A DNA stretch of 63,731 nucleotides, counting the filler, from Kipferlia bialata (taxonomy: Eukaryota): the NCBI GenBank assembly GCA_003568945.1. It is 7 parts of 6 records of this genome, joined end to end, with 100 filler letters (N's around TTAATTAATTAA, not from the genome) between each part and the next. Parts side by side here need not be neighbours in the genome. Positions count along the whole stretch, not along the records: positions 34,574 to 46,429 come from BDIP01001172.1; 6 more parts are not named here. One strand, written 5' to 3'. The stretch's first letter is position 1, and every line of letters starts with the position of its first letter. The notes beneath the pieces were generated by a model, which searched no databases, was not told where the DNA came from, and saw only the letters and a program-made list of their open reading frames with translations. A program made the translations under genes and the position numbers. Shown piece by piece: positions 11,882-63,510 of this stretch.

Positions 11882-11981
11882 NNNNNNNNNNNNNNNNNNN
11901 NNNNNNNNNNNNNNNNNNNNNNNNNTTAATTAATTAANNNNNNNNNNNNNNNNNNNNNNNNNNNNNNNNNNNNNNNNNNNN
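11882..11981. other. Synthetic contig linker (44 N + TTAATTAATTAA + 44 N)
   Basis: An identical 100-nt spacer with a six-frame stop cassette recurs six times. Sequence on either side is not physically adjacent. Confidence 0.97.
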
Positions 11982-17206: not shown

Positions 17207-19764
17207 CTAGTAGAGCACGTCTGGCAGGTTGCTGCTGGACTTGCCGAGACCTATGGGGTCAGTACACACTCATATATATATATATACCATCTATATACCC
17301 CTGTCCACCCACCTGTGTCCTTGACCCGCTGGCTGTAGGTGGATCTCTTCCTAGGAGTCAGAGGGAGAGAGAGAGAGAGAGAGAGAGACATATGGAACAG
17401 AGTATAGCATAACACGACGTGACTACGCATACATCTACACCCCACACCCACCTAGCCTGTGAGGGTGACATGTGTCCGTTGGGAGGAGGCCGGGGCTTCC
17501 TGCCGCTGGGGCTCTCTGCCATCCTAGATGTCCTGAGGTAGGGGCTCTCACTGAACCTACCATCCGGTACAGGGGACATGGGGGGGGCTGGGGGTGAGGC
17601 ACATACTAGGGAGAGCCGAAGATGGATTAGGGAGAGAGGGGGAGAGAGAGCAAGGCACTCTCCAGAATACACAATACCTCCAGTATACACACAGTATCCC
17701 ATGTCCCTACCTCCTGTGACGCTCTCGAGTGGTCTAGGGGGTCCCTTGTGGGAGGGCATGGGCCTTCTGATGTGCTGCTTCCGCCTGGGTGACAGCATCT
17801 CTACCGCATGCACAGCCCTGATGGTAAGGGGGGGGGGGGTATGTATAGGTAAGAATACACCAACACATAGGTATAGTAATGTGTGCACCCCCACCTGACT
17901 CCCTCGAGACTGGCCACGTCCCCAGACACACAGTATGTCAGCACAGACCTGGGGGTGAATGGATAGAAGGGTGGGGGCATGTCCAACAGCAACATAATAG
18001 CCATATCATCCACTCACTCTAGCAGGTGCCCTCTGTCTGTGGCGCTGAGTGTGCTGAGGTCAACGTCCAGACCAGCACTCAGACTGGAGAGCCTGGCCAG
18101 GTGCAATGCAGACAGCCTGGGGTGGGTGTGTATACACTGCATATATACATATATATACTGATACACTATATGGTAACATAGCATCTGGGCAGACAGCCTG
18201 GGGTGGGTGCATGTACACTAGATATATACATATATATACAAATATATACATATATACACTATATGGTGACATGGCATCTGGGCAGACAGCCTGGGGTGAG
18301 TATAGATACACTGTATACATATGTACTACACATATGTAGGATGGATGGGTCAGATGGATGGTAGACAGCCTGGGGTGGGTGGGGATGAGACGGGATATAT
18401 ACACAGCCTATCTATATACTACACCCTACACCCACTATGCATTCACATACATCCACCTGGTGACGTCTGCCTCAGTATCAGTATCATTATCAGTACATAC
18501 TGCATATCATATATATCATACAATGTATACACCCAAACATACACCCACCTCGTCAGGTCATCCCGGGTGCAATCATGGCACCCCCACTGACACTGTATAT
18601 CATATATAGTACCATATGTATATATACACAGATACACACACATATATACCTTGTCAGGTCAGCCTCGGGTGCTATCATGGCACCGGCTGGGGCAGAGGCC
18701 AGAGAGGTCAGGAAGCGGTTGAGGGTCCTGAGGGGTCAGCATCAGTATCTATATATATAAGTATTTATATATTAGTATCTATCTATCTATCTATATCTAT
18801 ATCTATCTATATCTATCTATATCTATCTATATCTATCTATATATATATGGTTGAGGGTCCTGGGGTCAGCATCAATGTGAGGCATGATGCACATATCTAT
18901 GCAAACAGTGTATGCACTAGTATATGACAAGACATGTGTATATACTCATCTATCTATGTTACAGAGTAGTACATGAGTCTACACATCCACCCCACCTGTG
19001 TCTGAATGCATGATGTCCAACCTATCTCACTATATACACACCAATCAATATACACTTATGGATATATCAACTGCATCCACCCCACCTGTGTCTGAATGCC
19101 AGCATGATGCCGCGTCTGCTCTGCCAGGCACGGATGTCCAGGCACAGGAACCTGGGGGTAGGTGGGTGACTAGAATTGATGTATATATACACAACATGTA
19201 CCCCAGCCATCTCACACCCACTGACACCACTGCCCCATTGACAATGGTCTCTCTCTCTCTCTCTCTCTCACCATGTCAACCCACCTAGCGAGTCTCACGG
19301 CCACAGACACCCCTGCCTCCTTGACCCTAGTCCAGCTGTAGTCAGACACCAGCCTCAGGGCAGTGGGTACTGGGTCCTCAAGGCCAAGGCGGCCTGGGGG
19401 TGGGGGGGTGCATGTAAGGGAGGGTGTGATACACACACCAATAACACTTTCTGTCTGCACTATACATCTACAATCCATACCTGCCACCGTCCTAGCCCTG
19501 TTGATGGAGTGGCACATGCTCCAGTTGTCAAGGGCCTGGCGGGACCTGGGGGTGAGGGGTTGTGGATATATGTAGAGACAGAAATAGAGAGATACAGAGA
19601 GGAGCGGGACCTGGGATGAGTATACAGCCGTGTATATTGCATAGAGTACAGGTATGCCTCATGATCCCTGGTCCACCCCCCTCTATATCTATACTGCACT
19701 ACCTCAGCCTCTGGTCCTCCTTCTGCAGTGCCCTCAGGGCCAGTCTCAGCCTGGGGTGGGGTAG

Positions 19765-19795
<31 letters not shown>

Positions 19796-20531
19796 GTATC
19801 ATAGATACATATACCGCATGGCCAGTCTCAGCCTGGGGTGGGGTAGTATATATATATATATATATATATGTACCATAGATATATATACCCCTAGGGCAGT
19901 CTCAGCCTGAGGGGAGGTAGTATGAATTATTACACGAATAGGTTCACCCGCACCTCCTTGGCTCGAGACTGAGTGCTGTCCCCCTGACCAGCTGTCTGAG
20001 CGCAGACTGGGACTGGTCAAGGTCAGACACAGTGTCGACTAGGCCTGGGGGGTCAATATATATAGATATACACACACATAAGAATATATATATGTAATAT
20101 TGATATATGACACAGTGTCAACAAGGCCTGGGGGGTGAGTACTAAACAGAGAGAGAGAGACACAGTATACACGATATATATATCAATATGTATACATACA
20201 CAAAGAGTATATCAATATTGATATAGGACACAGTGTCAACTAGGCCTGGGGGGTGAGGGTGGGATGATATATATATATATATATGTATAAGAATACACTA
20301 TATATTAATAAAGAATGCATAACTATAGATATATGACACAGTGTCAACTAGGCCTGGGGGGTGAGGGTGGGGTATAGGTATATACATACACATATGGATT
20401 TAACCATACCCTGCACCCTCTTTCCCTGCATGCTTGTCCCCTGCATGTGTGACTGTACACTCTTCTCAGTCACCAGACCAGCCAGGGACCGGCGGTACAG
20501 CTGCATCTCGGCCAGCAGGGACTGGGGTCAA

Positions 20532-20562
<31 letters not shown>

Positions 20563-23500
20563 AATTAATATATACTATACATGTAGATATATAAAATACA
20601 CACATACATTTATACAGCTGCATCTCGGCTAGCAGGGACTGGGGTCAGCGAGACATGTGTATCCATGGGTACGTACATGCGTATATATACTTATGGAGAT
20701 AGATATTCGGTATCAGTTTATATATACTCATTCATACGCATCAACCCTCTATACCTTGACCCTTGCGTTCTTTGCATATCTCTTTGCTCTCTCCTGGGCC
20801 AGCCCTGCCCTCATGCGCTGAGGGTGAGGGGTGAGGGTGAGGGGTTATACACATAGAGAGTATATACACGGGATGTCATACTTATATTGTCTCACTGATA
20901 CTGACGGTGTCACTCACACCCGCACTCACTTCGATACTATACACAGTACATACACCAACCTGCATCTGCACCGACTCCTCACTATTAGTGTCTGTCTCCA
21001 AACCTGTCTCGGCAGAGGCAGAGGCAGAGGCAGAGGGCTCCTGGGGGTGAGGCTGAGTGTATATACTCAATATATATATGTATACTATATGTCTATACTC
21101 CATGTACACACATACTGTAGCGCTGCACTATACCTGCATCTGAGTCAGCCTCATCTGGAGCACGTCTCTGTCCTGGCCAACGGCCTAGGGGTAAGGGATC
21201 GACAAGGATGTGTGCATGTCATACATAGGCATATATGCAGCGGGTACATGTACTGGCCCACGGCCGAGGGTCAGGGGGGGATCGTGAATGGATGAACATA
21301 ACCATACTAACCAACATTATAGCACCCATACCCTTAGTGCCTCGTGTCACATACACATATAGATCGATACACAATCACATACACACTGTACATATATGTG
21401 TACATCCACACCATACCTTGAGAGCCTCGTTTGTGTCACTCAGCGCCCTCTCGCTGTGCACAAAGGCAGACTGGGTGGCCTTAAGGGCATCCCTCAGACG
21501 CTGGGGGTGGGTATAGTGATATATCATATATAGTGATATATCATCTGTATATATACTCATAGACGCTGGGAGTGGGTGTGGGTGCAGTAATAGATATATA
21601 GAGTGATGGATATAGAGACGCTGGGGGTGGGTATAGTGATGGAGACATATTCATAATACATACTACCCATGGTCACACACACCAGTCACTCTGACTCCAG
21701 GGCCTCTATCAGTAGTATCCGTAACAGTATCATATATACACACATCTCCCCTCTATACCTGTGACTCCGACTCCAGGGCCTCTATCACAGCCTCCCTATG
21801 CACCAGAATGGCACTCAGCCGGGTGCACCTGGGGTTGGGGTTGGGGGGGATGAGATATATGCGTATATATATACGTATTATGATGACACTGTGCAATGTG
21901 GATGTACCTGGCCTTGTACACAGCCATCCCCTCTCATCTCTAGTCAAACGTGTATATATACATATACACCATTGGATACATGTTCCATCATTCAGACACC
22001 ATGTACCTGGCCTTGTACACAGCAAGGTCCTCATCTGTGGAGTCTCTGTCCCTGGACTTGCCTAGCAGTGAGGGGGATACATGGGATCAGGATAATGCAT
22101 GCATGGGTAGATGGGTTCAGGTGGAGACTCAGTTCCTGTGGCTATTGGAGTTGAAGAAAGAACAAAACGGTATAGGGGCCCATCAGATAAACTGTATCAT
22201 AGCAGAGCACATCTTGCGTACCTCCCCCCACTGTGTTGTACTCCCTGACATCCCCCTTTCCCTGCTTGGCGTTGTACAGGGCCTGGGGGTGAGGGTATGA
22301 TATGGTTTATACATGAGGGTGTGGGGCAGAGGGTGCATAGTATCTATTGGAACGAATGTGCTGATAAAGGAAACACCTGTCCGACCTTGTTCTCTCCTAG
22401 TTACATATAATCTATACCCCCACCTGTCTGAGCTTGTTCTCTCTCTCTGTGGCCAGCGTCACCCTCCCCTTGAACACAGCTGTCATCTCCGTCAGTCTCT
22501 TCTCAAGCAGCTCAACCCTAGGGGTCAGGGGGAGTGATACACACATGCACCCACACGGGTCACAGTATCTGGATAAATATATATATATATTATAGACTCA
22601 GGAGTCTGGTACCTCTTCTCAGCGAGCAGTGCCCTCCGCTCACTCTCCTCCTCCCTGTGCCTCTCTGTCTCCAGCTGGGAGTGGGCATCCCTCCCTGAGG
22701 TTGTGTCCCGGTCACGCAGAGGCCGGGCCTGGGGGGTTAGACGATATATATATATATATATATATATATGCATGGACAGGCACACTACACATATATTGTA
22801 TAGAGAGAGTATATGTAATGCCCCCATACATACCATGTTGAGTGTACAGTATACATACCATGTAGTGTGTGAGGTGTACCTTCATGGCAGCGGCTGCGCC
22901 AAAGGCCTGGGCCTCCTCAGACACATGCGCCAGATGGGCCTAGGGGGTGGGGGGGGGGGGGGGGGCAGGTATATGTATATGAATATGCATGGCATTGCAG
23001 ATCATCATTCACTTGGTGGGTCTGCGGTGAGCGTGTAGATCAAGTAAGGTGGGTAGCTATTTAAGCCTGCATACCTAATCTACCGGTCTGTCTGCTGTGT
23101 CCAGAGGGGGTATGTAGACATGTATATATTCATCAGTACATGTATATATGTACATATATACACATCTATACATAAATATATATACCTCCTCTACCGCTCT
23201 GTCTGCTGTGTCCAGAGGATCCACAGGCCTAGGGGGGATGTTAAGGAGACCTGGGGTGAGTGGGGTCAGTATCATGTACCTATTAAGAACTATGATACTG
23301 TCACTGATAGGGGGATGTATACTGACACTGATGTTGATTCCTATACCCCCCTCCCCCATTATTCTGTCTGTCTGTATACTGTGATATATAACACCTGTAT
23401 ACACTGTTCATATACATATATCCCATTTCCACATACCCTCCTCCTCCATGATCCTGTCTGTCTGTTCCTCGGACAGGGGCACTCCATCCCCATCAAACAG

Positions 23501-23860
23501 AGACTGGGGTGAGGGGATAGGATTAATGCATGTGGTATGGATATGTATATGCATATATGTATATATATGTATATGCATGACTGAGATGTACCAATGAAGG
23601 ACAGGGAGTGCTGGGGAATACAGTGACAGCAGAGTGAATATGCCGAGTGACTGTGTGCCTACATACATACTCATACACACTGATATACCCCTACCTGTGG
23701 TATGTCTGATGCCATGGACACCGCCTCATCTACTAGGTGTCTGGGGGGTGAGGGGGGGAGGGGGAGTGCTACTATATACCCATCCATCCATATACATACA
23801 CACAGCACCTGATGTCCTCCCCCAGTCTGTCTGTGTCTGTGTCACATCTCTCTCTCTCTC
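17207..23860 (-). CDS. Long coiled-coil protein, ~24 short exons, 5' truncated
   Basis: Continuous phase-consistent splice path, e.g. ERRALLAEKRVELLEKRLTEMTAVFKGRVTLATERENKLRQ, LESESQRLRDALKATQSAFVHSERALSDTNEALK, RMRAGLAQERAKRYAKNARVKSLLAEMQLYRRSLAGLV. It ends GLGKSSSNLPDVLY with TAG at 17207-17209. Confidence 0.8.
20025..20362 (-). repeat. Four tandem copies of acceptor + exon start (CCAG|GCCTWGTYGACACTGTGTC)
   Basis: Acceptors at plus-strand ~20045 (true exon), ~20128, ~20246 and ~20354, separated by differing (TA)n-rich spacers. Confidence 0.93.
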
Positions 23861-23960: not shown

Positions 23961-26900
23961 TCCAGGCCAGGGAAGCAGAAGCTCCGGATGGACACTATGC
24001 ACTGCTCGCAAGATGCGTCAATCTCATCTGAGAGAATACCTACTGGTCTTCCAGCAACAGAGACAGTCGTGTACTCTAGGAACTGGCGAGAGGGACGGGA
24101 AGGAATTGCTGGACCAGTGGGAGTCAGCGTGTTCTCCCTTCCACGTGGCCTTCTCTTAAAGAGACGACCAAAGAGAGATGGTAACTGTCCAGGCCTTCTC
24201 TTCAACTTTGGCTCAGGGACAGGCCCTACCCCCTCATATATGTCACTCTCTCTCTCCCTGAGTATGACTCCCTCTCTCAGGCACCGCACTGCAGCAGTGA
24301 CAGAGGCTGTGTGCAAAAGTGTCCAGGGCGGGGTGGCTGAACCCCTAGGGCATGGTAGAGAATCTCGTAGTCTACTGAGGTACAGACTCACACCCGCATT
24401 CCTGCCATCAACCGACATCTCTTGTCCAAGCGGAAGCCTCTCTGCTGCCTCCCTCGCCAGACACACTAGAATAGGCCCTGGGAAGCAATTAGATGAGCCA
24501 CCTGCTATTAGACCATCAATACTGGTTCCTATTATACATATCATATACAATAACCTACCTGGTAAGAGCCCACCATTCCCATAGTGAAGCTTCTGTCCAT
24601 AAGGCTTGGTGGCATAGCCCAATATCAGTCGCAGAGCCTCACTTTCTCTACTCTCTACACTGTCTGTACTCCCCTTGCGTTGAGTTAAGTGGTAAGATAA
24701 AGAACCCTCAAGGTACCCAGAGACTATGCCTTGTATGTGTGTCTCTAGGGTATCCTCCCCCCTGACCATACCCTCCAGTAGTGGGTGCAGGAACCCTGAT
24801 ACCCCACCAGTGAGAGAGAGCACACACTGTCTACCTATCTCTGGGGTGTATGTGTATGGTGACCCCTCCTCCCCCGTCGTGTCTAGCCCTAGGTATCCTG
24901 CCACTAGAGTGTGTGGGTCATATCCAGCAATGTAAGACATCCTGCTAAACCGAGAGAAGACCTGCTCTCCGGTTGGAGCTACTTTCCAACTATCAGTGCT
25001 GTCCATACGCTGAAGACAGTGAGTATATCCACGGGCAAGGTCATAGTCTACGTAGTCAGCAGCTGAGGCTAGGTTGGTGGTACCCGTTACTATGACGTGG
25101 GTGCTATCCCCGCCGAAGTCTCCGATGTGCTGACCACATGGCAAGATGTAGGAGAGGGTAGGATTAGCATCAAGTGCCCATTCCTTATGGTGAGTATAAT
25201 AGTGTAACATGTATATATATATACATGTATATATATTAGTCTCCGATGTGCTGCCCGCACGGCAAGATATACGCCAGTGTCGGATTAGCATCGTGTGCCC
25301 ATTCCTGATTAGTTAAAACATATAAGTGTTCTATAATACATATATTCACTGAGTATGGTAAGACGTAGGAGAGTGTAGGATTAGCACCGGGAGCTATCTC
25401 CTAGTCACTAGGAGACTCCTAGTGTGAGTATATCAAAAGAATGCATGTACATATATCACTAAGATGCATGCGAGAGATGGATTAACACCACTGCTGCGAC
25501 TCAGGGAGTGGCCCTCACTGAAGTACATCACGCAATAAGGGTTTAGTGTGTGAATGTCCGTGAGGATCAATATATCTATAGCTTCTTTACAGTATACAGT
25601 CTAATATACTCTGTTGGCCTCAGCTTGCGTATAGTAAGAACACACACACACCCATATATATATATATACGCCATTGATCTAACATAAGAGTCTCCTCCTT
25701 TATCTCCATATCTCTAAACAAGTTAAGCACCATACCTTACGGTGATTGGGCATCAGCAGACTACCAGTATAATGATTATTGTATATATGTATACATATGT
25801 GCGCGACTGTGTACTTTTGAGTCATTCTCCACCCATATTATGGACAATACCTTACGGTGATTGGGCATCAGCAGACTACCAGCATCCACCAACAGAATAT
25901 ACAGTATATATAGTCACGCTTGAAGCGCTTGATACGCTGCGGTGTATACATGTCACTCATGTAGTATCTTTAGAGTAGATAAACAGTACCTTGCGGTGAT
26001 TGGGCATCAGCAGACTACCAGCATCCACCAACAGAACATACAGTATAGGCAGTCTGGGAGGCTTGGGAACCGCAGTCGGTGCTTGCACACTAGGGTAAGA
26101 CGTACAAAACTGACCAGGCAGAGAGAGAGAGAGTAGCCTACTAGGGTAAGATGTACAAACCAGAGCAATAGATAATACGTCTATACTAAATACAATGTGA
26201 TACATAGCTTTCTGTGTTCACACTTCTTAAAGCTAGGGCTTTAAGATACTTCAAGTAACTAGGTATCATTACCTCCAGCTGTATGATCGCTCGGGTCCCG
26301 AGTAGTTCCTAAAGTACCTGGAAAGTGAGAGAGCTTCAATATATCTAGATACGCGTAGCCTCTGCTGTCTTAGATGATCTAACAGGAGAGCGATTCCTTA
26401 GCCAGAGATACCAAGTAGATATCAAAGCAAAGAGATACATATACATGAGTGTGTACGTACATGTCAACCTCATTGACTAGACCATTGTAGTGTAGTGGCG
26501 TCGGATCTGTCTCCATAGACACTAGAGAAGGTTCAGGCAGCGTGTGCGGAATACCCAAGCGAGTGGCTATCTCGGATACACCATAGAGAAATTGCGAGAT
26601 ACGGTTCTTCTCATCATTATCCAGACCATCACCCACGCTCATTCTAGCGATGCACCACTCTCTGAGAGCCTCATACACTCCACCCCGCACTATGGAGCTG
26701 ACAATGGTGTCTACGTGGTCAGTCCCACTGCAGGAACAGTCTAGGTAGAGAGACACGCCCTTCACAATTGACCCATCAGGGAGAGAGATACCCCCCCTAG
26801 GAAGACGATGGGCTAGCTCCTGTAGCAGTGTCCTCTTCCCATCACTCCTATGGCTCTGCAGAAACCCTCTCTTGTATCTCTCACTGAACTTCATCAGAGC

Positions 26901-27775: not shown

Positions 27776-28339
27776 GGTATGTAGGGAGACTGATTGTTAG
27801 CGTAGTGATACAAGTGTAGGGCATCGGGAGAGTGCATGCTACCTAGTGTTGGAGCATACCCTTTCCAATAGCATATACATAGACACAATTACATACATAG
27901 TATACTCAACAGCTTCAATGGCTCTATCTAGTGCATCTGGAGAGTGCATTGACTGTGGCAGACTGACTATCAGTACAATACTTGAAGTAATATACTTCAC
28001 TATATGTATATACATACTATATTACTTCAATGTTCAGGGTATCGGGAGAGTGCATACTGGCTCATGTTAGAGGTATAATCAAACCCATCAGAGAACACAG
28101 AACTACTTCAACATTTTCAGGCCATACTTCAATGTGTATACAACACGTGTACAATATATACATACATGCATATACAACCCAACAACGGACCTTTAGTACT
28201 ATACTATGTTCTCGTATACAATATATATTATAGGATAGTATAGCATACTGCATTCAGGTGTATATGGATACTTTGTAAGGACGGGGAGCCGAGAGAGAGA
28301 GGCGGGGGGGGGGGGGGGGGGGGGGGGAAAAGGGCTTTA

Positions 28340-33780: not shown

Positions 33781-33815
<35 letters not shown>

Positions 33816-34409
33816 CTATCTGTCATCGTCTCACTCTCAGTGACGGGTACTCCTACTCCTACTCAGGGGACGAGGGAGAGGAGGGAGAGATGGAGGAGGA
33901 GATGGAGGCGTCAGTTGAGGGAGAGAGAGAGACCCATGCCCAGGTGCAGGAGGAGAGAGAGGAGAGAGAGGAGTTCTCCCTGAGGGACCTAGCCTCCTCT
34001 GGCCTTGACAAGGACGGGGACACTATACAGGGCGAGGAGGAGGACTTCATCCCCTTGGCCTGGGACGAGGAGGATCTGATACCCGATGAGGGTGTGGGTA
34101 TGTCTCGCACCAGTGCTGGGATAGTGTATGGGGAGGACGCAGGGTCTGAGAGCGAGGACACCCTCACCAACAGCATCGGATCGTCGTCTGGGTCACCCTC
34201 AAGGGGGGGAGAGAGGTAGGCGCAATATGTATATGTAGTGATAGTACAGTGAGTGTGTCTATATGCCACCCTTCTTACCACCCAGGTCCATGCCGCAGCG
34301 TCTCCCTGCTGCCTCCCCCAAGCTCAGGGGCGGCAGACACCCCCTCTCTGTGTCCCACCTCGTCGAGTCCACAGAGAGCCTCCTGGGACCAAACTCACAG
34401 GCCCTTAAG
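28494..34409 (+). CDS. Kelch-repeat protein with long coiled-coil and acidic C-terminal region; both ends truncated
   Basis: Spliced kelch repeats: RYGHSLCQVDGHILLFGGLGGRGRLGDLWEL, PCPRTEHVAVHVTKRHSMVLVGGSSGSGPLNDVWEYNVQDNEW, PQPRHACASVSLTQRGLVLFGGTATDRRYNDLWLF. These are followed by the large exon from 29338 and further heptad-rich exons. Confidence 0.87.
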
Positions 34410-34573: not shown

Positions 34574-34627
<54 letters not shown>

Positions 34628-34631
34628 GGGG

Positions 34632-34986
34632 GGCACACAATGCGTTGGAGGAGGGGCATGGGGCGGCTAATGTCAGCTGTGTATTTATATATATAGATAG
34701 ATAGAGAGAGATAGAGAGAGAGAGAGGACTGGGCACACAATGCGCTGGAGGAGGGGCATGGGGAGGCTAAGGGTAAGCCGTGTCTAGTGTGGTCTTCATA
34801 CAATGTACTATTCTCATAAGTAATACGTACCTTGCCAAGTGCTGTGCATGCTTCACAATGTCCACCTGACTGTGCACATCACCCAGCATGGTCACACGGC
34901 AGGACTGCTTCCTAGGGTTAGGAAATACGATTATCTGTCAGAGAGAGAGAGAGAGATGGTCACACGGCAGGACTGCTTCCTGGAGT

Positions 34987-35022
<36 letters not shown>

Positions 35023-38000
35023 AGAAGGTATTTATGGGCTGCAAAACAAATTCCGTAGGATAACTAGGAATTGCACTATAGTGAGAGACAGAAGAGAGAC
35101 GACCATAATTAATTTCAAATTCGATGTAGAAACAGGCCACACATACCTAGTCACAGCGACTGCCAGGTCTGTGTTATCCCCCTCTCCATATATATATAAA
35201 TACACACATATATGTATATATAGGCATATATATATACCTAGTCACAGCTGTGGCAAGGTCTGTGTTGTCACCAAAGACATTGGCCGTGGAGGTGTCACCT
35301 GATATTAGAGCCAATATACACATGCATACTCCGTATATAACTAAGCAATGTATATATATATATATATACCAAAACATATCTGTTATTAGCATCTAAAGAT
35401 ATTGGCCGTGGAGGTGTCACCTGATGCATTAGTGGAAATGACTTGACAGACACAGTACTCTCCACAGTTAAAAGTAGTGAATACATACTCTAACAATAGC
35501 TGTAGATATCCAAACATGCATCTATCTACATATATAGATATATGTGTATGTATATACCTTGTCTTGGTCCCAGTAGGGCCAGGTATGGCACCTCGTCCCC
35601 GTCTATCCTGATGGACACGGCAGAGCCCTCGGCCAGGGAGTGGCCGCTCAGCATGACCTGGGGTTACACACTGTATATACACACACACATGTATATATNN
35701 NNNNNNNNNNNNNNNNNNNNNNNNNNNNNNNNNNNNNNNNNNNNNNNNNNNNNNNNNNNNNNNNNNNNNNNNNNTTAGACACAACAGAGCCCTCGGCAAG
35801 GGAGTGACCGCTCAGCATGACCTGGGGTTCAGACACTACACAATAGAGGGAATAGATATGAATACACTTTTGTAATGTATATATCGTAAGTAGTATATAT
35901 ATAGTGTAGATAACGAACATGCAATTCAGTGTCCACTCAGCATACAACTGGGTAACGACAAATATATATAAGAAGGAGAATGTAGTAGTAGTACCTGATC
36001 ATTCACCACATAGACCCATGCCCTGCACTCCTGTCTGCCTCTCCTACGCCTTCTGTCCCCTAGAGGTGAGAAGGATTCAAATACTAGAGATAGCACACAC
36101 TATTAGTACTATTCTGTAAACAGGCTTAGGAAACAGATAATAATTAGTTATTAAGAATTATAATTAGGAAACAGGACTCCGACACCGGAGTGTGGAGGCC
36201 ATAATCAATACAATGCAATTCAAAACACATCGTACTCACTATATGAAGATAACCATTAATAATATATGTACCTTGTATGGCAGCCCCTGCCTCACACACT
36301 GCAGTGTGGATACATCTGTAGAGGAACCGGTCGATGAACCTTACACTGGCGTAAGCAATATATCGCGTAAAATGACTTGAAGTGCATGTATGTCGGGTAG
36401 AAGACTTAGGGGTCCGTACCTCCCGCCGTATGCCTTAGTAGCATCGAGTAGCGCTGTGGTGGCCTCCCCCAGATTGGCCAGAGACCTCTTTGATAGGAGA
36501 CAGGAGCCGACAGTCATGGAACGGAGAGGGGAGATCTGGAGGTTATAGGGATATACATGTATATACGCATAACTGATGAAACTAACATATATATGTTAAT
36601 ACCATACGTATAAAACTGATAGTCATGGAACGCAGTGGGGAGATCTGGAGATATTAGGATATACTGAGATATCACAACAGTGACAGGAAGAGAAGTGTTA
36701 ACATTATTATATGTACTAATAGGATAATAATATAATATGTACTAATAGAATAATAATACTATATGTACTAATAGAATAACCATGGATACCTGTGCGACTG
36801 GTCTGATTGCATTTGGAGGGACTGGGGTGATGTAGAAGGGACCGGACCCAGGCACGGAGGGGGTAGGCCTGGGGTGAGACTCTAATAGTAACATTCCATA
36901 TAAATGTATACATATATATATGGTACACTTGTATATGTAGAAGGGACCTCAGACCTCAAAGGGGGGAGTGTCAGGAGTCATCAGTAACAAACAGACGACT
37001 TCATGTATGTGTTCTCCTCCTGCATAGAGTGATGATAATATGTACATACCTAACCGTGGCCTTGGCTGCTGTGCCAGCAGCTGGCCTTCTCTTGACATCG
37101 GGGACAGCCATGGTGATAGGGCCCCTTCTCCTGCGGGCAGGCCTCTTGACACCATTAACTCCATTTACATCGCTACTTGCCACAGTGGAACTTGTCACAG
37201 TAGAAGTGGCAGATGGTGTAGGTACAATAGGGGCAGTAGATGGAGCCATCACAACGTCGGACCCTGAAGGCTGGGGTACTAGTGATCCTGCTGAAGTGCT
37301 AGGAGCAGTCTTCCCGGTGGAAGTAGCTCTAACTGGAGGTACAGGGGGTACCATAGCCTTTCTCTCTGGAGCCTTGGGCTTGGGCTTAGGCTTGTATGTC
37401 CTAGTCACTACGGGTGCGTCAGCAAAGACACTAGATGGGTTGGGCCCCAGGATCTCCACCTCTGGTACAACCGTAGGTACTGTAGCAGTAGAAGAAACTG
37501 GAGCAGCTCTAGTAGTAGCGGGTCTAGCAATGGTAGTGGCAGTAGGTGTAACTACAGGCACCACAGGCACACTAGTGGATACAACAGGAGGCACAGGGGG
37601 TGGTGTCTTGAGAGGCGGGGAGGGAGTGGTAAAGGAGAGGGCCTCGCTCTCCCCCTTGGATAGAGGGGGTGAGAGAGACATGGGTGCAGGGTGGGAGATG
37701 GTGTCAAGGACAACAGGAGCTGTAGAGGGAGCTGTAGACACACTTGGCGCAGTGGATACTGAAGGGACTACAGGTATAGTGGGTATGACAGGGGGCACAG
37801 GGGCAACCACCACTGGCGTCCTGATCACAGGCTGAGCTGTTCTCTCTCTCTCTCTCTCCTTGGTGGATGATGGGGCAGTATGGAGTCTTGCACTAGTAGC
37901 ACTAGGCCTATTGCTACTGTTGTGCGACCTCTCGCTGGACACAGAAGATACAGCAGCAGATACAGCAGTCTTCTTAGCCACAGCTGGAGATACCACAGAT

Positions 38001-41000
38001 GCAGATAAGGATGCAGATGCCTTCTGTGACACAGCCCCTGAGGCTACACTAGTCTCCCTAGACCCCTTAGTGTCGTTAGCGCCCTTAGAGGCACGTACAC
38101 TCTTGCTAGCCTTGTCTCTCTTTGGATATAGCATGGATATGAGATCCTCTGCAGCTGGCTTCGGGGTCTTGGGACTAACCACAGGGACATGTATAGGTAC
38201 AGGGACAGGAACAAGTGGAGGTGCGGGTGCTACCGGTGCTAGAGGTGCTGCATCCGCCTTAACAGTCTCCCTCTCAGCAACCACTGGCACTGACTCTACA
38301 TTCTCCTTAGCAGGTGTGGTAGTGGTAGTGGCGGCAATTACTGTCTCCGCCTCCACAGCCACTCTCTCTCCCTCATGCTTCTCTTCTGCCCTCGGTACAC
38401 TGGCAGGTCTCTGACCCACCGGTACCATAGCAATATCCCCTTCTGCCCTTGGCTCCTCGCGAACAGGAGTCTCCCCCACCCTCTTCAGCTCATCCATCAT
38501 CCTGCCCATCCTCTCATGCCTCCTGTGCCGTGGAGAGAGAGACATCTCAGGGGACACGCACACATCGTCTGTCGCACTTCCTACACTGCCAACATCCACT
38601 TCCCCCCTCTCTCTCTCCTTGGGGGGAGGTATCTCTCTCTCCCTCCCTGCCTCTAGGTGACCCTCTCTGGGTGGCATGGACACGTCCCTCTCCACTACTA
38701 CTCTTTCTGGACTAGGACCCCTGCGAGTCATCTCAGTATCTCCATCCTCCTTCTCTCTCTCCATACCCCTTCCCACGGGGCTCTCTCTGGGTTGGCGGGA
38801 TTCAGGGGATCTCTCCCTCTCTCCCTCTCTCTCCCTCTCTCTTGGCACGGGTTCCAAATGTCCCTCCCGTCCCTCTCTCTCTCTTCTCTCCGGCTCCCCA
38901 CCCTCAACGACCCTCTCTCCCTCCCTATACCTCTCCCTTTCAGCAGGATACCCAGGACTCACTCGACGGGGACTAGGAGAGTGTGGTCTCTCTCTACCTC
39001 TCTCCCTCTCATCTCTGTACTCGGGTGAGTACCGGGGAACCCTCTCTCTCTCCCTGTCTCTCTCTGGAGAGAGACCCCTACTAGGGGAACGAGGGGCATA
39101 CACAACCTCCGTCTCTCTCCTAGGCGAGTACGACGGCTCTCTCGGTCTCTCTCCCCTTGGGGAGTAGGGCCTCTCTCTCTCCCTATCAGTATTGGATGCA
39201 GTGGTGTAGACAGGAGAGTACTCTCTCTCTCTCTCCCGTGCATACTCTGTCCTTGGTCCCTCCGGGGAGTATCTAGGGGGCTGGTAGTCATACTCTCTAT
39301 CCCTCCCCACCTCTCTCTCTCGTGGGTATGCATACTCAGGTGTCAGAGGACCTCTCTCTACAGCTGGCTGCACCTTCGCAGGCTCAATCTCCCTCACAGT
39401 CTCCTTCCACCTAGTATCAGTATATATATATATATATATATAGTATTACACTGATAGATATATAGTACATATACCAGTACCTCGTGCCCCCAGGACTGGT
39501 CGTGTACACGTCGTAGTATACATACTCATATGCAATCTCTCTCTCAGGACTAACTGGATACACGGGCATATCTCTCCGCCTATCCCCGGCGTTAGGGAGC
39601 AGCCTCTCTCTCGATCTAGACATAGACCTAGGTCTGCTGCGAGAGAGAGAGGGAGAGAGGGACGGTCTATCTGGATCTGGACAGGGAGTGGCAGAGGCAG
39701 AGGGTTCTCTCTCTCTGCATCTGTCCTCATATGCATGCCGCCTTCTCCTCTCTGCCTCTCTCAGTCTGTCTAGCACCACCTCTCTCTCAAGCTCAGCCTT
39801 CTCAGCCGCTATTACCTGGTGATAACATAGATGGTAATGGTACATGTGTGTACATCCAAACAAGTGTGTCAAGTGATAGTACTGTATCCAGGAACAATAA
39901 TACTCAAAACTACACATATGCAACACACGTCTATACCTGCAACTCGAATGCGTCTCTGTCTATGGGGGGCAGGGGAAGGTTGACATAAGGATAGTATGGA
40001 TATACTATACTACTCATTAACATATATACTATCTATATGCTATACCTGTAGCTCCAGGGCGTCTCTGTCTATGGGCGGTAGGGGCAGGACAAGGTCATCG
40101 ATGGGTCTGGAGGGTAAGAGGAAGATGTATGTATATATATATATACATATATATACTGCTAATACTAACGCCTGAGTGATCAGAGTATTGTAGTGTCTCT
40201 AATAACACTCACCCAAATACTATACATATAGGTACACATACCTGCCCTGACACTCCAGCTCCTTCCCAGTGTCGGGCCTCTTCTCTGGAAAGGTGCTCTC
40301 GGGGTTCATGAGCTCCTTGTCATATACCTGGTATCAATATAGTAACTATTATACCTTAATAACAGACTAATATAATAATAAGAGTAGCAACAGACAAGAG
40401 TGAATGAGCTCCTTGTCGTACACCTGTGATAAGCATATCAATAACAAGAGATAACATACAGTACATATACTATCCTATCTACAAGTCCCTATACCTGGGC
40501 CTCTTCTCCCCTTGCCGCCACCCGCCTGTCAATGTTTCTGTTCAGTACATATACATAAATAGAGTGTCCATACACATATAGTATATACACTCTATACCTG
40601 GGCCTCCTCCCCCCTTGCGGCCACCCTCCTGTCTATGTTACTGATCAGTGACGCAACTGAGGGCACGGGGTGGTGGGTCACATTGCGCATGTCATCCCTA
40701 TTGTGAATAATCGCATGACAATTCTCCATATATATAGGCAGAAATCAATGATGATAGTCGCCTAGTCCAATTACTTAAATGGTGCAACACCGCGTAGAAC
40801 ATTACAATCGTGTAGAGTGTTACCTGTCGAAATGGGGTGGACTTGGGCTGAAGAGGACGTTGGAGTCGTCAGAGTCTATCTGGGGTCAGCATAGCCCATT
40901 ACACTAGGCTAACATCGATTGAGAAACCACCGCACAAATACACCTGAGCAATACCTCTCCATCATTGACCACGGATGTAGAGTGAAGTAGTACAACTACA

Positions 41001-43935
41001 ATAACATATATACCTGTGGAGTAGGGGCTCTCTCTGTCTTCTTGTCCACTGCCCCCAGCCACGGATGTGGGTCTGTGAGTCTGGGCAGGGGATTGCACCC
41101 TGCCTCCACCCTGACAGGGAAGGAGGAGAGCATACGGGTGAAGACATTGGTCTAGGGTTAGATATATATGAATATATATATATATAGAGAGAGAGAGAGA
41201 GCACCCTGACAGGGAAGGAGGAGAGCGGGTAAAGACATTGGTCTAGGGTTAGTACATATTGCCATCCAACTCACAAAATCCAGTAACCGTCTCTGAATGA
41301 AAATATGTACTCGTCAATAGTGTAACTAGTGGGAGTGGGGGCGAAACCCTCTCGCACTCCCCATATATATATACCTACTCCTCATCCCTTGCAAACTCCA
41401 GCAGCATCTCCTCTGGTAAAACATATGTATTCATATACCGTGTATATATGTATAAACAAATATACAAAAATATATATTAATACAAATGTACATACATTAT
41501 ATATATGTGTGTATATACACTATACCTTCTCCTCATCCCGTGCAAACTCTAGCAGCATCTCCTCTGGAAAGGCCAGGGCCTGGGCACGAGTGATACTCAG
41601 AGAGTTGCTAAGGGGTTAGATGTATGCTTGTCACATACTGTACAATTGTCACAGTTGTCAAAATTATACCTTAGAATTGTCTGGATGAACACGTTTAGGA
41701 ACGTCAGGTCCAGGTCAGGTGTCGATATGTGGGGGAAGAGGCCCTTTTGGAACACCTAGGGGTGAGAATAAGGGTATTCACAAGACATGATGGATAATCA
41801 ATTAATATTGAGAGAGCAAAGGAAGGAAGGCTAAGGTGTGAGAATAGGGAGCGAAAGGGTAAAGTAGTGGTGTTTACAAAGGCGAATGAGAGTCAACTTT
41901 CAACATATACACTACATAGGTATAGTACACTATGCAGTACATATACATACAGGCAGGAAGGGTGTCAGTACATTTACACTATATGTATACATAAATATAT
42001 ACTGTATACACTATATTATATATATACTTCTATATTACACCAGTACCTGCATGATGGGCAGCAGTGACCCAAGTACAGCCAGGAAGGGTGTGAGTACACT
42101 GGCAGGGAGGACGCCATCCTCTGTGCCTAAGAATGAGAATAGGGGTGTAGAGGGGAGAGAACGAGACAGAGAGAGAGAGAGCAATATGCTTACCTCCATT
42201 CTCGCATAGGGTTAGCACTGCTGATAGGAGAGATGCCGTCCAACATGGCATGCCTAGGACCTTGTTGGTCAAGACCCTGAAATAAGGGTCTAGATAGGGT
42301 CAAAAATGGATGTAAGAGACTGAGAGAGTCCATTATATTCACCGGTTGCAATTAAGGGTGTGGTGGCCAGCTCTAGCTATTATTTGGTTTAGGGGTTGGT
42401 ATCGCAATAGACAGAAATCATCAGAGAGTAGCAATGTCTACACTCACCATCTGTACTTGAGTGTCAGTGATGCAAACTGGCTGTAGTCCTCTTACTTGAG
42501 ATATAACCTATATATATATACACACACATATATAGATAGATATATACATCATCCTACATATATCCACTGATATATGGATGGGTACGTACCATCTATACTT
42601 GAGTGTGAGCGATGCAAACTGGCTGTAGTCCTCGATGGATGGGTGGAACAGAAGGTCTCTGTTCAGCTGCTGACGCACAGGGGCAGGGACAGTCTGATGT
42701 TAATAATTGAATATATATATATATATACGTATACTCCTATGTAAATATACATGAATACATAGGAAGGTCTCTGCTATCGAGCTGCTGACGCAGAGGGGCA
42801 TAGTCTGATATTAGAGGATGAATACACTATATTCATGAATACAACACAGTATGTAAACTATAGAGTAAGGTCTCCACTATCAAGCTGCTGACGGACAGGG
42901 ACAGGGACACTCTAAGGTTAATGATATGTCGGATGAATATATATGTATATATGTATATATATTATAATATTATATGTATATATCGAGTAAGGTCTCTATC
43001 CAGCTGCTGACGCACAGTCTGGACTTAGACAGCAACGAACATATATTGTGTGTAGCTTATACATGTATATATACTCCGTACGTTGACTAGGTGTCTAGTC
43101 TGGCACAGTCACAGGATATACTATGTATAGAGTGTACAGATACTATATAGAGTATGAAAATATATACATATATATATATACATATGTCCACTGCAATAAT
43201 ACACTCAAGACCATACCTCCACCAGGTGTCTGATGCCCATTCTGGCACAATCACTAACTAATACTTGTATATACTAATCTATAATACATAATACTTCAAG
43301 ATCTTGTATATATACTCCATACCTCCACCAGGTGCCTGATGCCCATTCTGGCAGAATCATATACTAAAAACATGTATATATTAATCTATAATATATACTA
43401 CTTCAAGATCTTGTAAATATATATACTTATTATATATACTAATTTTATATACTCCATACCTCCACCAGGTGCCTGATGCCCATTCTGGAACATGACAGTG
43501 TGGGCTGGGGTGTCAGAATACAAATATCAAATATATCCACAGGAGTATTCGGATTGATCGAGTAATGAACCATCTTCTTGGACTAAAGGACTCTTTTGTG
43601 TGTGTGTTCGTATAAATGTGTATACATATACACATAGGGGTATATATATATACCTGGTAAGGAGTGATGTCAATCTTCTCCGTCTCACTCTTTCTATGAT
43701 TCAAACCCTATATACGTATGTGTAATGTAGGGAAATAGATATTTACATTCATACCTGGTATGGAGTGATATAAATATGAATGTGCATATGAGCATATGTA
43801 ATAGTATACTTGTCTATGATTATCAGTACGTATATATATGTACCTGATATGGAGTGATGTCAATCTTCTCCGTCCCACTCTTCTTGGCGTCATTGTCAGA
43901 CTCGACATCGGGCATGCCATCCTGAAATAAGGGTC

Positions 43936-43979
<44 letters not shown>

Positions 43980-44088
43980 TTGTCAGACTCGACATCGGGC
44001 ATGCCATCCTAAAATGAGGGTGTAGAGAGAGAGAGAGAGAGAGATGCTTATCATACAATCAGGCATGCCATCCTGCAGTAAGGGTCTA

Positions 44089-44139
<51 letters not shown>

Positions 44140-44181
44140 GTTTAACATACAATCAGGCATGCCATCCTGAAATATGGGTGC

Positions 44182-44225
<44 letters not shown>

Positions 44226-45852
44226 TTATCATACAATCAGGCATGCCATCCTGAAATAAGGGTCTAGAGAGAGAGGGGGGGGGGGGGATACTTGACACAT
44301 GGACTCACAATAGGAAATAGATACACAAGTACCGAATGAATACAACAATATAATAGTACGTCAATAATATATATCCTACCTCCTCCTCGTCGTCTGGCTA
44401 CACAAAGAAGTCGGAGGACATATACTAAAGTATATATGAGGATAACACGAATATACTAATGTCAATCAATACACATAATAGAATATATCTATCCTACCTC
44501 CTCCTCGTCGTCTGGCACCACAAAGAAGTCGGAGGACAGAAAGTGCATGGAGAGCCTGGCATTAGTAATCAGTATACAAAGTATATACTATAAGTAGTAA
44601 AGTAATATACAATTGAGCCAACAATTGGTACCCGACTTCAGTATGGCCAGTGCTACCATATATATATATATATACATATATATACGGTATTTATCTCCTA
44701 CACATATCTATATCTACCAATACAAATATCTATATATATACCCCACCTGAGTATGGCCAGTGCCACTATGGGTGCCGCTACCCTCGCATGTATATACTCT
44801 CTCCCAATAATTATGTTTATTATTACAGCATGTATATGTATATTCAATACTATACCTGAGTATGGCCAGTGCCACTATGGGCGCTACTTCTACAATATGT
44901 ACACACACTCTCTCTATATATGAATACTATTACATACTATTGTATACATACACATATATATACCTGAGTATGGCCAGTGCCACTATGGGTGCCGCTGCCA
45001 CAGGCTCAGACTGCACCAGGTACAGGTAGTTGACCTCTATAGTGAGAGAGAGATGATGTGTTATGAATGTATTCATAAACGTAAGAGTATGTGTACTAGT
45101 ATCAAGCTATACTATGCGGACAGAACTCTACAGAACTACACAAAGAGTTACTATAACATCTTTCTACACTCCCATTTTTATACATCTATAAGAACACAAA
45201 CGTATACGTACCTGGTGCATATGCTATTCATATATACTCACATACCACTTGCATAATACATGTAACTAGTATATATATGAATAGTACCTGGAGCTCCTGC
45301 CAGACTGACACAGAACTCAGGGGCCACAGTCTGTGGGGTGAGAGACATATGTCAGAGTATGAATATATATATACTATGATATAATACATACTAGAACAAA
45401 AGATGTGTATTATGAATAAGAACAGAACTCAGGGGCCACAGTCTGTGGGGAGTATACACACTCACATGCAGGTACTGTATTGATACCAGTCACATACAAT
45501 AATGTATCCAATGGACATATAAATCAATGTAAAGTATTGATAGAAAAATACTCACCTGCTTGTACTGTATGGATGTCAGTACTCCATGGGTCTTCCCTGG
45601 CCATCTCCTGATGTAAGGGTGAAGAGAGAGAATTAGGGTCTTGGCAGAGAGAGAGAGAGGGACATAGTGTCCTTGCAATAACACACCTTAGCATTAAAGG
45701 GAGTAGGCTCCTCTCGCATGCCCCACTGGACTCTGGGTCATACTACTCTCTCTCTCTCCCAGTATAGACATATGTATACACATATGTATATATATACCTC
45801 AGCATCAGGGGTAGTAGGCTCCTCTCACATGCCCCACTGGAGTCTGGATCTG
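34632..45852 (-). CDS. Very large multi-exon (>25) hypothetical protein: hydrophobic/helical N-terminal part, RE/RS/YSP-rich and Pro/Thr/Val-rich middle, globular-looking C-terminal part; both ends truncated
   Basis: Phase-consistent path from DPDSSGACERSLLPLMLR (45798-45852) through TVPAPVRQQLNRDLLFHPSIEDYSQFASLTLKYRW and VFQKGLFPHISTPDLDLTFLNVFIQTIL. It continues through exon 39481-39815 and the large exon ~37050-39410 (798-aa ORF), then ECRAWVYVVNDQVMLSGHSLAEGSAVSIRIDGDEVPYLALLG and onward. No family recognised. Confidence 0.8.
35699..35774. other. Internal scaffold gap (76 N, no stop cassette)
   Basis: A plain N run inside an intron, between a true exon start (35657) and a copy of the same exon start (~35780-35821). 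Confidence 0.9.
43654..44262 (-). repeat. Exon 43844-43921 flanked by four extra acceptor/exon-start copies and two extra exon-end/donor copies
   Basis: AG|GATGGCATGCC acceptors at plus-strand ~43922 (true), 44009, 44073, 44167 and 44251, separated by (GA)n tracts. Donor copies ATCACTCCWTAYCAG|GT at ~43775 and ~43654. Confidence 0.93.
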
Positions 45853-45854
45853 CT

Positions 45855-45898
45855 AGGGCAAGGGCACATACAGACAGGGGGACACTGCAGGAACTATA

Positions 45899-46186: not shown

Positions 46187-46290
46187 AGATGCTGTTAGGG
46201 CAAGGGCACACACGGAGAGGGGGGTTGGGGGAGAGAGAGAGAGAGAGGACGGCAGTACAAGGGCACAAACCAACAGGGGGACAGAACAAG
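45855..46290. repeat. Intronic degenerate tandem array (GGGCAAGGGCACA...GGGGACACTGCA units interleaved with (GA)n/(TA)n)
   Basis: About five units at ~45856, 45959, 46074, 46198 and 46258, copying the intron 3' end just upstream of exon 45798-45852. Confidence 0.8.
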
Positions 46291-46429
46291 ACCTATATTA
46301 TACGAGAGTGAGAGAGAGACAGAGTAGAGAAGGAGAGTGCCATATATGTATGTATATCACTGATATAATACTATTGTTAGTGTAGTCTAGTATTGGTCTT
46401 CAGAACCCACATAGTAAACACTACGTGGA

Positions 46430-62188: not shown

Positions 62189-63510
62189 GTACACACACAC
62201 ACATATATATATACATATATATACCTAGCGACAGCTCCAGTGACCGTGTGTGCAGCGTGATGCTCTGCTTGACCCACCCACTCATCTGGGCCACCCTGCC
62301 CTGCACGTCCTGGGAGGGTTAGGGGTATATACAGTATATATATACGTATTACACACATACACACATATACATACCCTGTGCAGCCTGTGCACACTCTCGA
62401 CATCTGGCTCGCCAGGGTCTCTGGTGGTATCGGTGTACCTGGGGGTCAAGAGGAGTCAAGGAGGCTCACCAACCACACAGAATGAGAGGTATAGTCAATA
62501 TACACAGAGATTGCCACATATACATACCGTCTCTTCTTCTCCTCCAGCTGGTGCAGCTGCTATATACATACACATATACATCACTATGTAAGTACACTCA
62601 TATAATAAGCTGTCATCATACAGTGTCTTCTTCTCCAGCTGGTGGAGCTACCAAACAATAAAACTGTATACTCACATCACATTCTCCTCACTAAAAATTA
62701 TATTACACTATATAGCCTCTGCGTACCGTCTCTTCTTCTCCTCCAGCTGGTGGAGCTATATATATATAATCATACATATATATCCTATTCATTATATCTC
62801 TCTATGTATATACACTATGTATAGCCTCTACGTACCGTCTCTTCTTCTCCTCCAGCTGGTGCAGCTGCTCGTCTAGCTTCTTGGTCCTGGGGTGGGTAAA
62901 GGGGTCTATCCATACAACTAGTATATACTAGTATATCTGCAGCATACATGTATACCCGTGCATACCAGCTTCGTGGTCCTGGGGTGAGGGGAGGGGTCAA
63001 TGTACACTACACATATGCCCTATCATTACACCAATACGTCAGTCCAGAGCCTATCCGCAGAATATACACAACAACATACCTCCTCTCATAGCTCTGTGCC
63101 CTTATGTCAATCTCACTCTCCAGCTCCACTATGCGCCTCTTGGCGTCCTTGATGCCTGGAGGGTTAGATATAATCTATAATCGATATTTATCAAGTGTGA
63201 GTAAATAGATATCAGAGAGATACATTCCTGACAGACTAAATATATGGTCAGAGGGATATATATATATATTGAATAGGTGTCTCTTGGCGTCCTTCAGTCT
63301 TTAGTATTACAACACTCGGGAGAGAGAGACAGCTATTGATGTCATACATGCACTTATACCTATCTCCAGCTGGTTGCACTTTGTCTATATAGACATCCAA
63401 ATATATACACATATATACATATATGTGTACTACTATACCTATCTCCAGCTGGTTGCACTTTGTCTGCATCTCTGCAAAGGTGGTGGGCTCAGACCCATAG
63501 GAGGGGATGA
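58976..63510 (-). CDS. Coiled-coil protein, 15 exons seen, 5' end beyond the window
   Basis: Phase-consistent path: TKCNQLEIGIKDAKRRIVELESEIDIRAQSYERRTKKLDEQLHQLEEKKRR...YQTIVKESDWLRTEVQRLTELNTSLAQQEH...IIKVVNECLASIKEDM...KVAERLMHEEHLFSMLSDVLK...FRGDEE, with TGA at 58976-58978. Confidence 0.82.
60077..60578 (-). repeat. Exon ~60249-60317 flanked by three extra acceptor/exon-start copies and two extra exon-end/donor copies
   Basis: Plus-strand CCCTCTTCTCAG / CTCAGTGGCAACCTGGGGG copies at ~60393, 60480 and 60561. TACCTCCAGGTCT copies at ~60076 and 60167. Confidence 0.88.

What the first reader, a model, noticed from the sequence alone, without database searches (positions are those of the whole stretch)
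39937..40639. Echo copies differ from the true exon almost only at synonymous sites
Seen (minus strand): echo 40495-40536 reads AAC ATT GAC AGG CGG GTG GCG GCA AGG GGA GAA GAG GCC CAG; true exon end 40598-40639 reads AAC ATA GAC AGG AGG GTG GCC GCA AGG GGG GAG GAG GCC CAG. All 5 differences are silent (NIDRRVAARGEEAQ in both). Echo 39937-39978 vs exon 40046-40087 has 5 silent codon changes (including CTA/TTG) and one L/F change. A neutrally decaying intronic copy should mostly show replacement changes. Inference, alternatives: (a) copies still contribute to mRNA, by alternative or recursive splicing or by repeat-mediated excision or template switching in which either copy ends up coding; (b) copies were captured from strongly diverged alleles by unequal recombination; (c) the assembly mixes haplotypes. 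Option (a) would be a new kind of gene processing; (b) would be an intronic archive of alleles.
Basis: partly seen in the sequence, partly recalled or inferred. Interest (0 to 1): 0.92.

Follow-up and report, generated by a model that had tools for sequence, protein, structure and literature searches.

The report
Silent-variant exon echoes in Kipferlia introns
In the free-living protist Kipferlia bialata, half of the introns examined here hold a roughly 30-base copy of the neighbouring exon end that differs from the real exon mostly at silent codon positions and is left out of the assembled RNA in the one gene checked, likely because the copies were captured from other alleles during DNA repair, which would make these introns a record of past alleles.

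Summary
The DNA is Kipferlia bialata. In 8 modelled genes, 44 of 87 introns hold copies ('echoes') of an exon end plus its splice site: 75 pairs, against 2 decoy hits in 13,558 tests. Each echo adds about 100 nt. Pooled pN/pS is 0.22 (0.20 for nearest echoes, 95% 0.13-0.32). A simulated neutral cis copy gives 0.51 (lowest 0.29 in 150 runs), and wrong frames give about 2.1. Haplotype mixing is rejected: exon and echo lie in single full-depth DNA contigs. Present coding use is not supported: the RNA contig uses the true exons, and 0 of 8 echoes checked are covered. Replacement changes look neutral (4 stops, no bias to conservative changes, no gradient towards the splice site). The intronic halves of most units do not align. 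Best reading (0.6): echoes were born with silent differences, copied from diverged alleles by out-of-register, exon-anchored recombination, and now decay. The donor alleles were not seen. I found no description in print.

The parts
40598..40697 (-). True exon (DDMRNVTHHPVPSVASLISNIDRRVAARGEEAQ), donor used
   Evidence: RNA contig piece with 0 other letters; open chain
40547..40597 (-). Spacer, 51 nt, starts with the used donor GTATAG
   Evidence: not alignable to the flank of the echo (p=0.19)
40495..40546 (-). Donor-side echo, 52 nt, 5 silent and 2 replacement differences, keeps its GT
   Evidence: no RNA cover
40424..40494 (-). Complete inner GT..AG intron-like segment, 71 nt, between the two echoes
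40404..40423 (-).
   Evidence: no RNA cover
40328..40403 (-). Spacer, 76 nt, ends in the used acceptor
40242..40327 (-). True exon (VYDKELMNPESTF...)
   Evidence: record offsets and bin depths of the RNA contig
40046..40106 (-). True exon (PIDDLVLPLPPIDRDALELQ), donor used
   Evidence: RNA joint skipping 230 nt with CT..AC ends
39980..40045 (-). Spacer, 66 nt
   Evidence: not alignable to the flank of the echo (p=0.35)
39937..39979 (-). Donor-side echo, 43 nt, 7 silent and 1 replacement difference, keeps its GT
   Evidence: no RNA cover
39816..39936 (-). Rest of the intron, 121 nt, GT..AG
34831..45893 (-). Host gene G6, 26 modelled exons, 1517 aa open, function not identified; 30 echo pairs in or just upstream of it
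   Evidence: RNA backs exons 42693-36800 only
25238..25304 (-). Most diverged echo (of the exon starting 25183): 67 nt, 9 silent and 2 replacement
46258..46292 (-). Outermost of three acceptor echoes of the exon at 45893; includes AGT>TCT (Ser/Ser)
3958..3983 (+). Acceptor echo in the SprT gene; includes CGT>AGG (Arg/Arg)
2495..7093 (+). SprT-like gene KIPB_005134, 6 echo pairs, frame from the deposited protein
58976..63510 (-). Gene G5 (coiled-coil-like), 19 echo pairs, 8 of them identical to the exon part
18018..23503 (-). Gene G7, 12 echo pairs, two with stop codons in the echo

Best explanation
These introns hold non-coding copies of exon ends that differ from the exon mostly at silent sites, likely because each copy was taken from a diverged allele by out-of-register recombination and has decayed neutrally since. 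Shown: each unit is about 30 nt of exon end with its splice site plus about 70 nt of intron; in the gene checked the main RNA uses the first donor and last acceptor, so the echoes are spliced out. Inferred: allelic introns are too different to pair, so repair of a break in an intron would be anchored on the exon; synthesis on the homolog would run 15-60 nt into the exon and rejoin behind the old intron stump, or later conversion from a homolog's exon would refresh an old echo. Inferred: donors differ by about 0.14 per silent site on average, in two classes near 0.07 and 0.32. Reliance on Dmc1 without Rad51A or NHEJ would favour such mismatch-tolerant repair.
For: Pooled pN/pS 0.22, nearest echoes 0.20 (0.13-0.32), wrong frames 2.0-2.1; simulated cis-copy null 0.51, lowest 0.29 of 150. 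Frames backed by RNA or the deposited protein alone give 0.20, 14 pairs. 4 of 17 double-hit codons are silent, including AGT/TCT and CGT/AGG. Replacement changes look unselected: BLOSUM -0.52 vs -0.55 neutral, 4 stops vs 2.0 expected, pN not lower near the splice site. pS and pN are uncorrelated across pairs (rho 0.12); silent counts are overdispersed. Intron halves are no more alike than random introns in 59 of 74 pairs. Echo codons are as usual as exon codons, 44 vs 42. 0 of 8 echoes have RNA cover. Rad51A and NHEJ loss: PMC8516963, passages. Diploid k-mer profile: PMC5874029, passages.
Against: No donor allele was seen: over 6.1 kb the DNA run shows no second haplotype at 85% likeness, so this strain looks homozygous there. 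Silent divergence up to 0.55 is very high for alleles. In 10 of 14 pairs with an identical exon part the intron halves do not align, which needs extra assumptions (exon-only conversion or very fast intron turnover). Changes private to the nearest echo are 6 silent to 7 replacement, too few to place the excess on the echo lineage. Donor and acceptor echoes in one intron are not associated (p=0.21) and their silent divergence is uncorrelated, so one-step capture of a whole allelic intron is not the rule. Extending each alignment by 3 or 6 nt raises the ratio to 0.46 and 0.63; this is expected from non-homologous tails but shows that boundaries matter. A fixed 13-nt window gives 0.24.
Confidence: 0.6

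Rival explanations
1. Echoes are cis duplicates kept coding-compatible by second-order selection: recurrent collapse between the repeats, or conversion from echo to exon, makes echo letters coding in descendants.
For: Exon halves stay alike while intron halves do not. 69 of 75 echoes keep GT or AG. Repair in fornicates is thought to rest on HR (PMC8516963, passages).
Against: Collapse predicts the lowest pN next to the splice site; pN is highest there (0.054 vs 0.023-0.036 at 7-33 nt), and stops occur near donor ends. By my reasoning, not simulated, cis-only conversion gives pN/pS of 0.5-1, and an exchange rate high enough for selection would erase silent differences of 0.3-0.5 unless the population is itself hyperdiverse.
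Confidence: 0.13
2. Echoes still reach protein in a minority of transcripts, by in-register skipping from one copy to the other or by rare splicing.
For: pN/pS about 0.2; splice sites kept; in a very large population even about 1% use could be seen by selection (inference).
Against: The RNA contig uses true exons and 0 of 8 echoes are covered. Only 12 of 75 pairs offer an in-frame GT..AG route, and their ratio is higher (0.32 vs 0.21); neither focal pair has one. As an extra cassette the 40495 echo would be 43 nt, out of frame. Stops and radical changes occur at neutral rates.
Confidence: 0.1
3. Echoes are snapshots of the exon's own past: simple cis duplicates that change about 3.6 times more slowly than silent exon sites.
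For: The outer echo is more diverged than the nearest in 9 of 14 multi-echo ends. All 5 variants shared between echoes are silent. Some units are plain tandem repeats with alignable intron halves (15 of 74).
Against: No reason for slower change in an echo whose flanks are unalignable. GC direction at silent sites is only 41:30, so no strong exon-specific drive. 9 vs 5 is not significant. Equal rates give 0.51.
Confidence: 0.1
4. The assembly joins two haplotypes or strains.
For: Unit length near 100 nt resembles a short-read length; one echo (35821) lies across an N gap; X1 may be the source of the window, so it is not an independent sample.
Against: Separately assembled contigs span both focal pairs with 0 differences at depth 428 and 453, against 418-447 for neighbours; no half-depth or alternative contig is listed.
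Confidence: 0.03

Closest known systems
Human F7 intron 7 minisatellite with silent 5' pseudo-sites (PMC1557585, abstract)
   Same: Repeats spanning an exon-intron boundary leave intact pseudo-donors downstream; the most upstream donor is used.
   Different: One locus, 37-bp repeats with identical pseudo-sites. Here 44 of 87 introns, both donor and acceptor sides, about 100-nt units with unrelated intron halves and a codon-aware bias.
Intron gain by tandem genomic duplication (PMC3265369, abstract; PMC4974935, search listing)
   Same: Short intragenic duplication that involves splice signals and leaves the protein unchanged.
   Different: There the duplicated AGGT-type site creates a new intron (detail recalled). 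Here an existing intron grows; only 12 of 75 pairs have an in-frame GT..AG route, and the RNA shows no new intron in the gene checked.
Heterogeneous gene duplications that join two alleles (PMC6121789, PMC4592963; search listings)
   Same: Two different alleles end up in tandem on one chromosome.
   Different: Those are whole, expressed, adaptive gene copies. Here the copies are 13-67 nt, non-coding, and occur at many exon ends.
Recursive splicing at AG|GT ratchet points (recalled, no call)
   Same: Donor echoes usually end in AG followed by GT.
   Different: It would not put echo letters in mRNA and cannot select on amino acids; not tested with reads.
Mutually exclusive duplicated exons (recalled, no call)
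   Same: Tandem exon copies with low dN/dS.
   Different: Echoes are partial, anchored at one homologous splice site, sometimes contain stops, and are absent from the RNA contig.

Membership tests
Alternatively used duplicated exon | Copy appears in spliced mRNA | tested here: not met
   0 of 8 echoes covered by RNA contigs; rare isoforms not visible
Alternatively used duplicated exon | Copy has both splice sites and keeps frame | tested here: not met
   Focal echo 40495 would be a 43-nt cassette; the only in-frame AG in either focal echo leaves 6 nt; 4 stops among echoes. The 18-nt piece at 19815-19832 is a possible exception.
Alternatively used duplicated exon | Purifying selection on amino acids now | tested here: inconclusive
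   pN/pS 0.22, but replacement changes are neutral-like
Intron gain by tandem duplication | New GT..AG intron between the two copies | tested here: not met
   In-frame route in 12 of 75 pairs, none for the focal pairs; RNA uses outer sites
Boundary-spanning tandem repeat (F7 type) | Intact pseudo splice sites ignored in favour of the outermost site | tested here: met
   69 of 75 keep GT/AG; echo sites not significantly weaker (p=0.17, 0.20); outer sites used
Boundary-spanning tandem repeat (F7 type) | Whole unit, intron half included, is repeated | tested here: not met
   Intron halves align better than random in only 15 of 74 pairs
Heterogeneous (two-allele) duplication | Copies lie in cis | tested here: met
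   Single contigs at full depth
Heterogeneous (two-allele) duplication | Each copy matches an allele found in the population | not testable with these tools
   Only one sample listed; metagenome scans blank
Heterogeneous (two-allele) duplication | Differences between copies look like coding polymorphism | tested here: met
   Silent excess over the cis null; silent double hits
Recursive splicing | Intermediates spliced at the AG|GT point | not testable with these tools
   Only contigs, no raw reads

The most novel reading that the evidence does not exclude
Kipferlia keeps a second, interchangeable version of thousands of exon ends inside its introns: in-register skipping between the copies, in RNA or in DNA, puts echo letters into protein often enough for selection to hold them. 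That would be a new kind of gene processing.
Probability: 0.15. Interest if true: 0.93.

Novelty: new variant of a known kind. Interest (0 to 1): 0.74.

Why it matters
K. bialata is the intron-rich outlier among fornicates (124,912 introns, PMC5874029). If the window is typical, tens of thousands of its introns grew by capture of exon ends, about 100 nt at a time: a visible, countable route of intron growth and turnover. If the copies come from alleles, one genome records past allelic diversity and genetic exchange in a lineage whose sex life is an open question, and it shows what repair without Rad51A and NHEJ does to a genome. It also gives many natural tests of how a reduced spliceosome ignores intact decoy sites in short introns. 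In practice, echoes mislead gene finders: my own model took several as exons.

Tried and rejected
No whole genome is held, so all counts are for this window. Only two runs, one sample, contigs only, are listed; no holder is on record as RNA, and X2 is a guessed RNA run, although its spliced contig behaves as mRNA. Only 36800-42925 was laid, so RNA and DNA evidence covers 8 of 75 echoes. Metagenome scans for other strains found nothing. Homolog searches for the host gene found nothing, and Pfam gave no family for it, so its function is open. The first gene-finder run diverged and was discarded. Polarising by multi-echo ends gave 22 silent to 21 replacement private changes (p=5e-4); I do not rest on it, because serial copying makes exon-lineage changes look private to outer echoes. 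One-step capture of a whole allelic intron was suggested by the focal intron but is not supported window-wide. Spacers match nothing else in the window beyond simple repeats and neighbouring units, so no mobile element was found. Earlier findings of the scan: none. Left out of the counts: echoes under 13 nt or score 11, or broken by an indel (seen by eye at 18549, 19906, 18859, and before the exons at 18116 and 21500), and repeats in genes whose frame I did not fix (430-616, 1501-1766, 27817-28072, 28571-28715, 34582-34783). The long-exon genes at 29360-34219 and 49201-56238 were not searched for echoes. Three weak pairs without a splice dinucleotide were kept.

Full report
Source. An exon at 2690-2857 matches KIPB_005134 of Kipferlia bialata at 100%, and the whole deposited SprT-like protein maps on 11 exons at 2495-7093. 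The window is several contigs joined by N-linkers. I take the other contigs to be the same organism because they share intron style; for 37900-43850 the same sample holds both DNA and spliced contigs. No whole genome is held.

The observation. Both pairs are as described. The frame is independent of the mismatches: the RNA contig's exons form one open chain that reads NIDRRVAARGEEAQ and PIDDLVLPLPPIDRDALELQ. The first repeat is 52 nt, not 42, and the extra 10 nt carry two replacement changes. Against the right null (exon changes only silently, echo freely, ratio 0.5) the two pairs alone give p=0.12 and 0.03.

The pattern is window-wide. I modelled 8 genes (95 exons, 87 introns; open frames, GT..AG at all inner junctions). 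An ungapped search anchored at exon ends, not requiring a splice site in the copy, found 75 echoes at 56 exon ends, in 44 of 87 introns. Exon ends tested against introns of other genes gave 2 hits in 13,558. Echoes lie on donor (37) and acceptor (38) sides; median 29 nt; median unit 103 nt. Median intron length is 135, 231, 298 and 389 nt with 0, 1, 2 and 3 echoes. 69 of 75 keep GT or AG, and their sites are not significantly weaker than the used ones. After masking echoes only 7 of 87 introns hold another repeat, and some of those are missed short echoes.

The silent bias. Of 167 differences, 104 are at third positions. Pathway counting gives pS 0.179, pN 0.039, ratio 0.22; shifted frames give 2.0-2.1; one echo per exon end gives 0.20 (bootstrap 0.13-0.32); the 14 pairs whose frame rests on RNA or the deposited protein give 0.20, or 0.27 without the focal two. 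Simulation through the same detection step gives 0.51 for a cis copy (lowest 0.29 of 150, at a slightly lower mismatch rate, 0.057 vs 0.073) and 0.96 for a frozen exon. A fixed 13-nt window gives 0.24; forcing 3 or 6 extra nt gives 0.46 and 0.63. G7 and G5 show little bias by count (8:11 and 13:14), so the effect varies by gene.

Not an artefact. DNA contigs 39452-40115 and 40162-41156 each hold exon, spacer and echo with 0 differences, at depth 428 and 453, like their neighbours; no alternative allele is listed over 6.1 kb at 85% likeness. X1 may be the source of the window, and contigs drop rare variants, but a haplotype mix should have shown branches or half depth.

Not used in the main mRNA. 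One 3020-nt contig follows the true exons with 0 other letters in the pieces listed, and skips both focal echoes. Depth per bin matches exon-only cover to within about 1 in all 13 bins computed; the 7 bins that hold the 8 echoes lack the extra depth. Rare isoforms remain possible. The sequence also argues against present selection: 56 amino-acid changes are no more conservative than random, 4 are stops (2.0 expected), pN is not lower near the splice site, and pairs with an in-frame GT..AG route are not more constrained.

What fits. A silent excess with neutral-looking replacement changes means the copies were born silently diverged and then decayed. Silent counts are overdispersed, better fitted by two classes (0.07 and 0.32), and unrelated to pN. 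Silent double changes such as AGT/TCT and CGT/AGG point to a coding history. The intron halves are no more alike than random introns in 59 of 74 pairs, including 10 of 14 with identical exon parts; a plain tandem duplication does not predict this. I infer that homologous exchange here is anchored on exons and sometimes resolves out of register, leaving an old intron stump, a stretch of allelic exon end and the donor's intron; later conversion from allelic exons may refresh old echoes. Copies from the sister chromatid would give the minority of plain tandem units. Only outcomes that keep the reading frame survive. Fornicates lack Rad51A and NHEJ and keep Dmc1 (PMC8516963, passages); Dmc1 stabilises mismatched triplets (PMC6719624, abstract); K. 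bialata looks diploid by k-mers (PMC5874029, passages). These make the route plausible; none of it is shown for this locus.

Against it. No donor allele is present in the one sample, silent divergence reaches 0.55, and changes private to the nearest echo (6 silent, 7 replacement) are too few to decide. The focal intron looks like a nested exon-intron-exon patch, but donor and acceptor echoes are not associated across introns. I give allele capture 0.6, second-order selection 0.13, minor coding use 0.1, frozen snapshots 0.1, artefact 0.03.

Compared with what is known. It works like the F7 intron-7 pseudo-sites in splice choice (PMC1557585, abstract) and like two-allele duplications in origin (search listings). 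It fails the tests for an alternative exon and for intron gain by duplication. The passages I saw of the genome paper and of a spliceosome study (PMC6679479) do not mention such repeats, and six searches listed no paper whose title or abstract start describes them. I read no supplements, and most subscription journals are not searched, so absence from print is not established. I rate it a new variant of a known kind: ordinary parts, but a scale and a codon-aware signature that a specialist would not expect. Interest 0.74.

Noticed in passing
window 19815-19832 (-): 18-nt acceptor echo followed by GT, in frame with the next exon; could be a real micro-exon (RLRLAMR). No RNA was laid here.
   Followed up: no
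window 40537-40546 (-): The two replacement changes at the far end of the focal echo make a branch-like CTGAAC plus AG; a cassette from it would be 43 nt and out of frame.
   Followed up: partly
window 2972-2974 (+): Donor echo in the SprT gene has GC in place of GT.
   Followed up: no
window 59489-59998 (-): Echoes 59711 and 59663 are identical to their exons (30 and 32 nt) and enclose a 47-nt GT..AG segment, shorter than any plain intron modelled (59 nt).
   Followed up: partly
window 23075, 21683, 41375, 44380 (-): All four stop codons found in echoes are in donor-side echoes, three of them in the last two codons before the echo's GT.
   Followed up: partly
window 42334-42410 and 42138-42185: Short elements shared with many other contigs (very high summed depth); one contains aaccctaaacc, telomere-like by recall.
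   Followed up: no
window 35699-35774: A 76-N gap inside an intron of the host gene lies between echo 35821 and its exon; this pair may be affected by scaffolding.
   Followed up: no
window 430-616, 1501-1766, 27817-28072, 28571-28715, 34582-34783: More repeats of about 90-110 nt period in genes whose frame I did not fix.
   Followed up: no
window 51617-54057 (+): Long coding repeats (800-1000 nt spacing, 74-80% alike) inside a very long coiled-coil exon.
   Followed up: no
window 11882-11981 and five similar places: N-run, TTAATTAATTAA, N-run linkers join separate contigs; neighbours across them are not neighbours in the genome.
   Followed up: yes
all modelled introns: Branch-like CTRAC/CTYAC lies only a few bases before the acceptor, often followed by CCCCAG.
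   Followed up: partly
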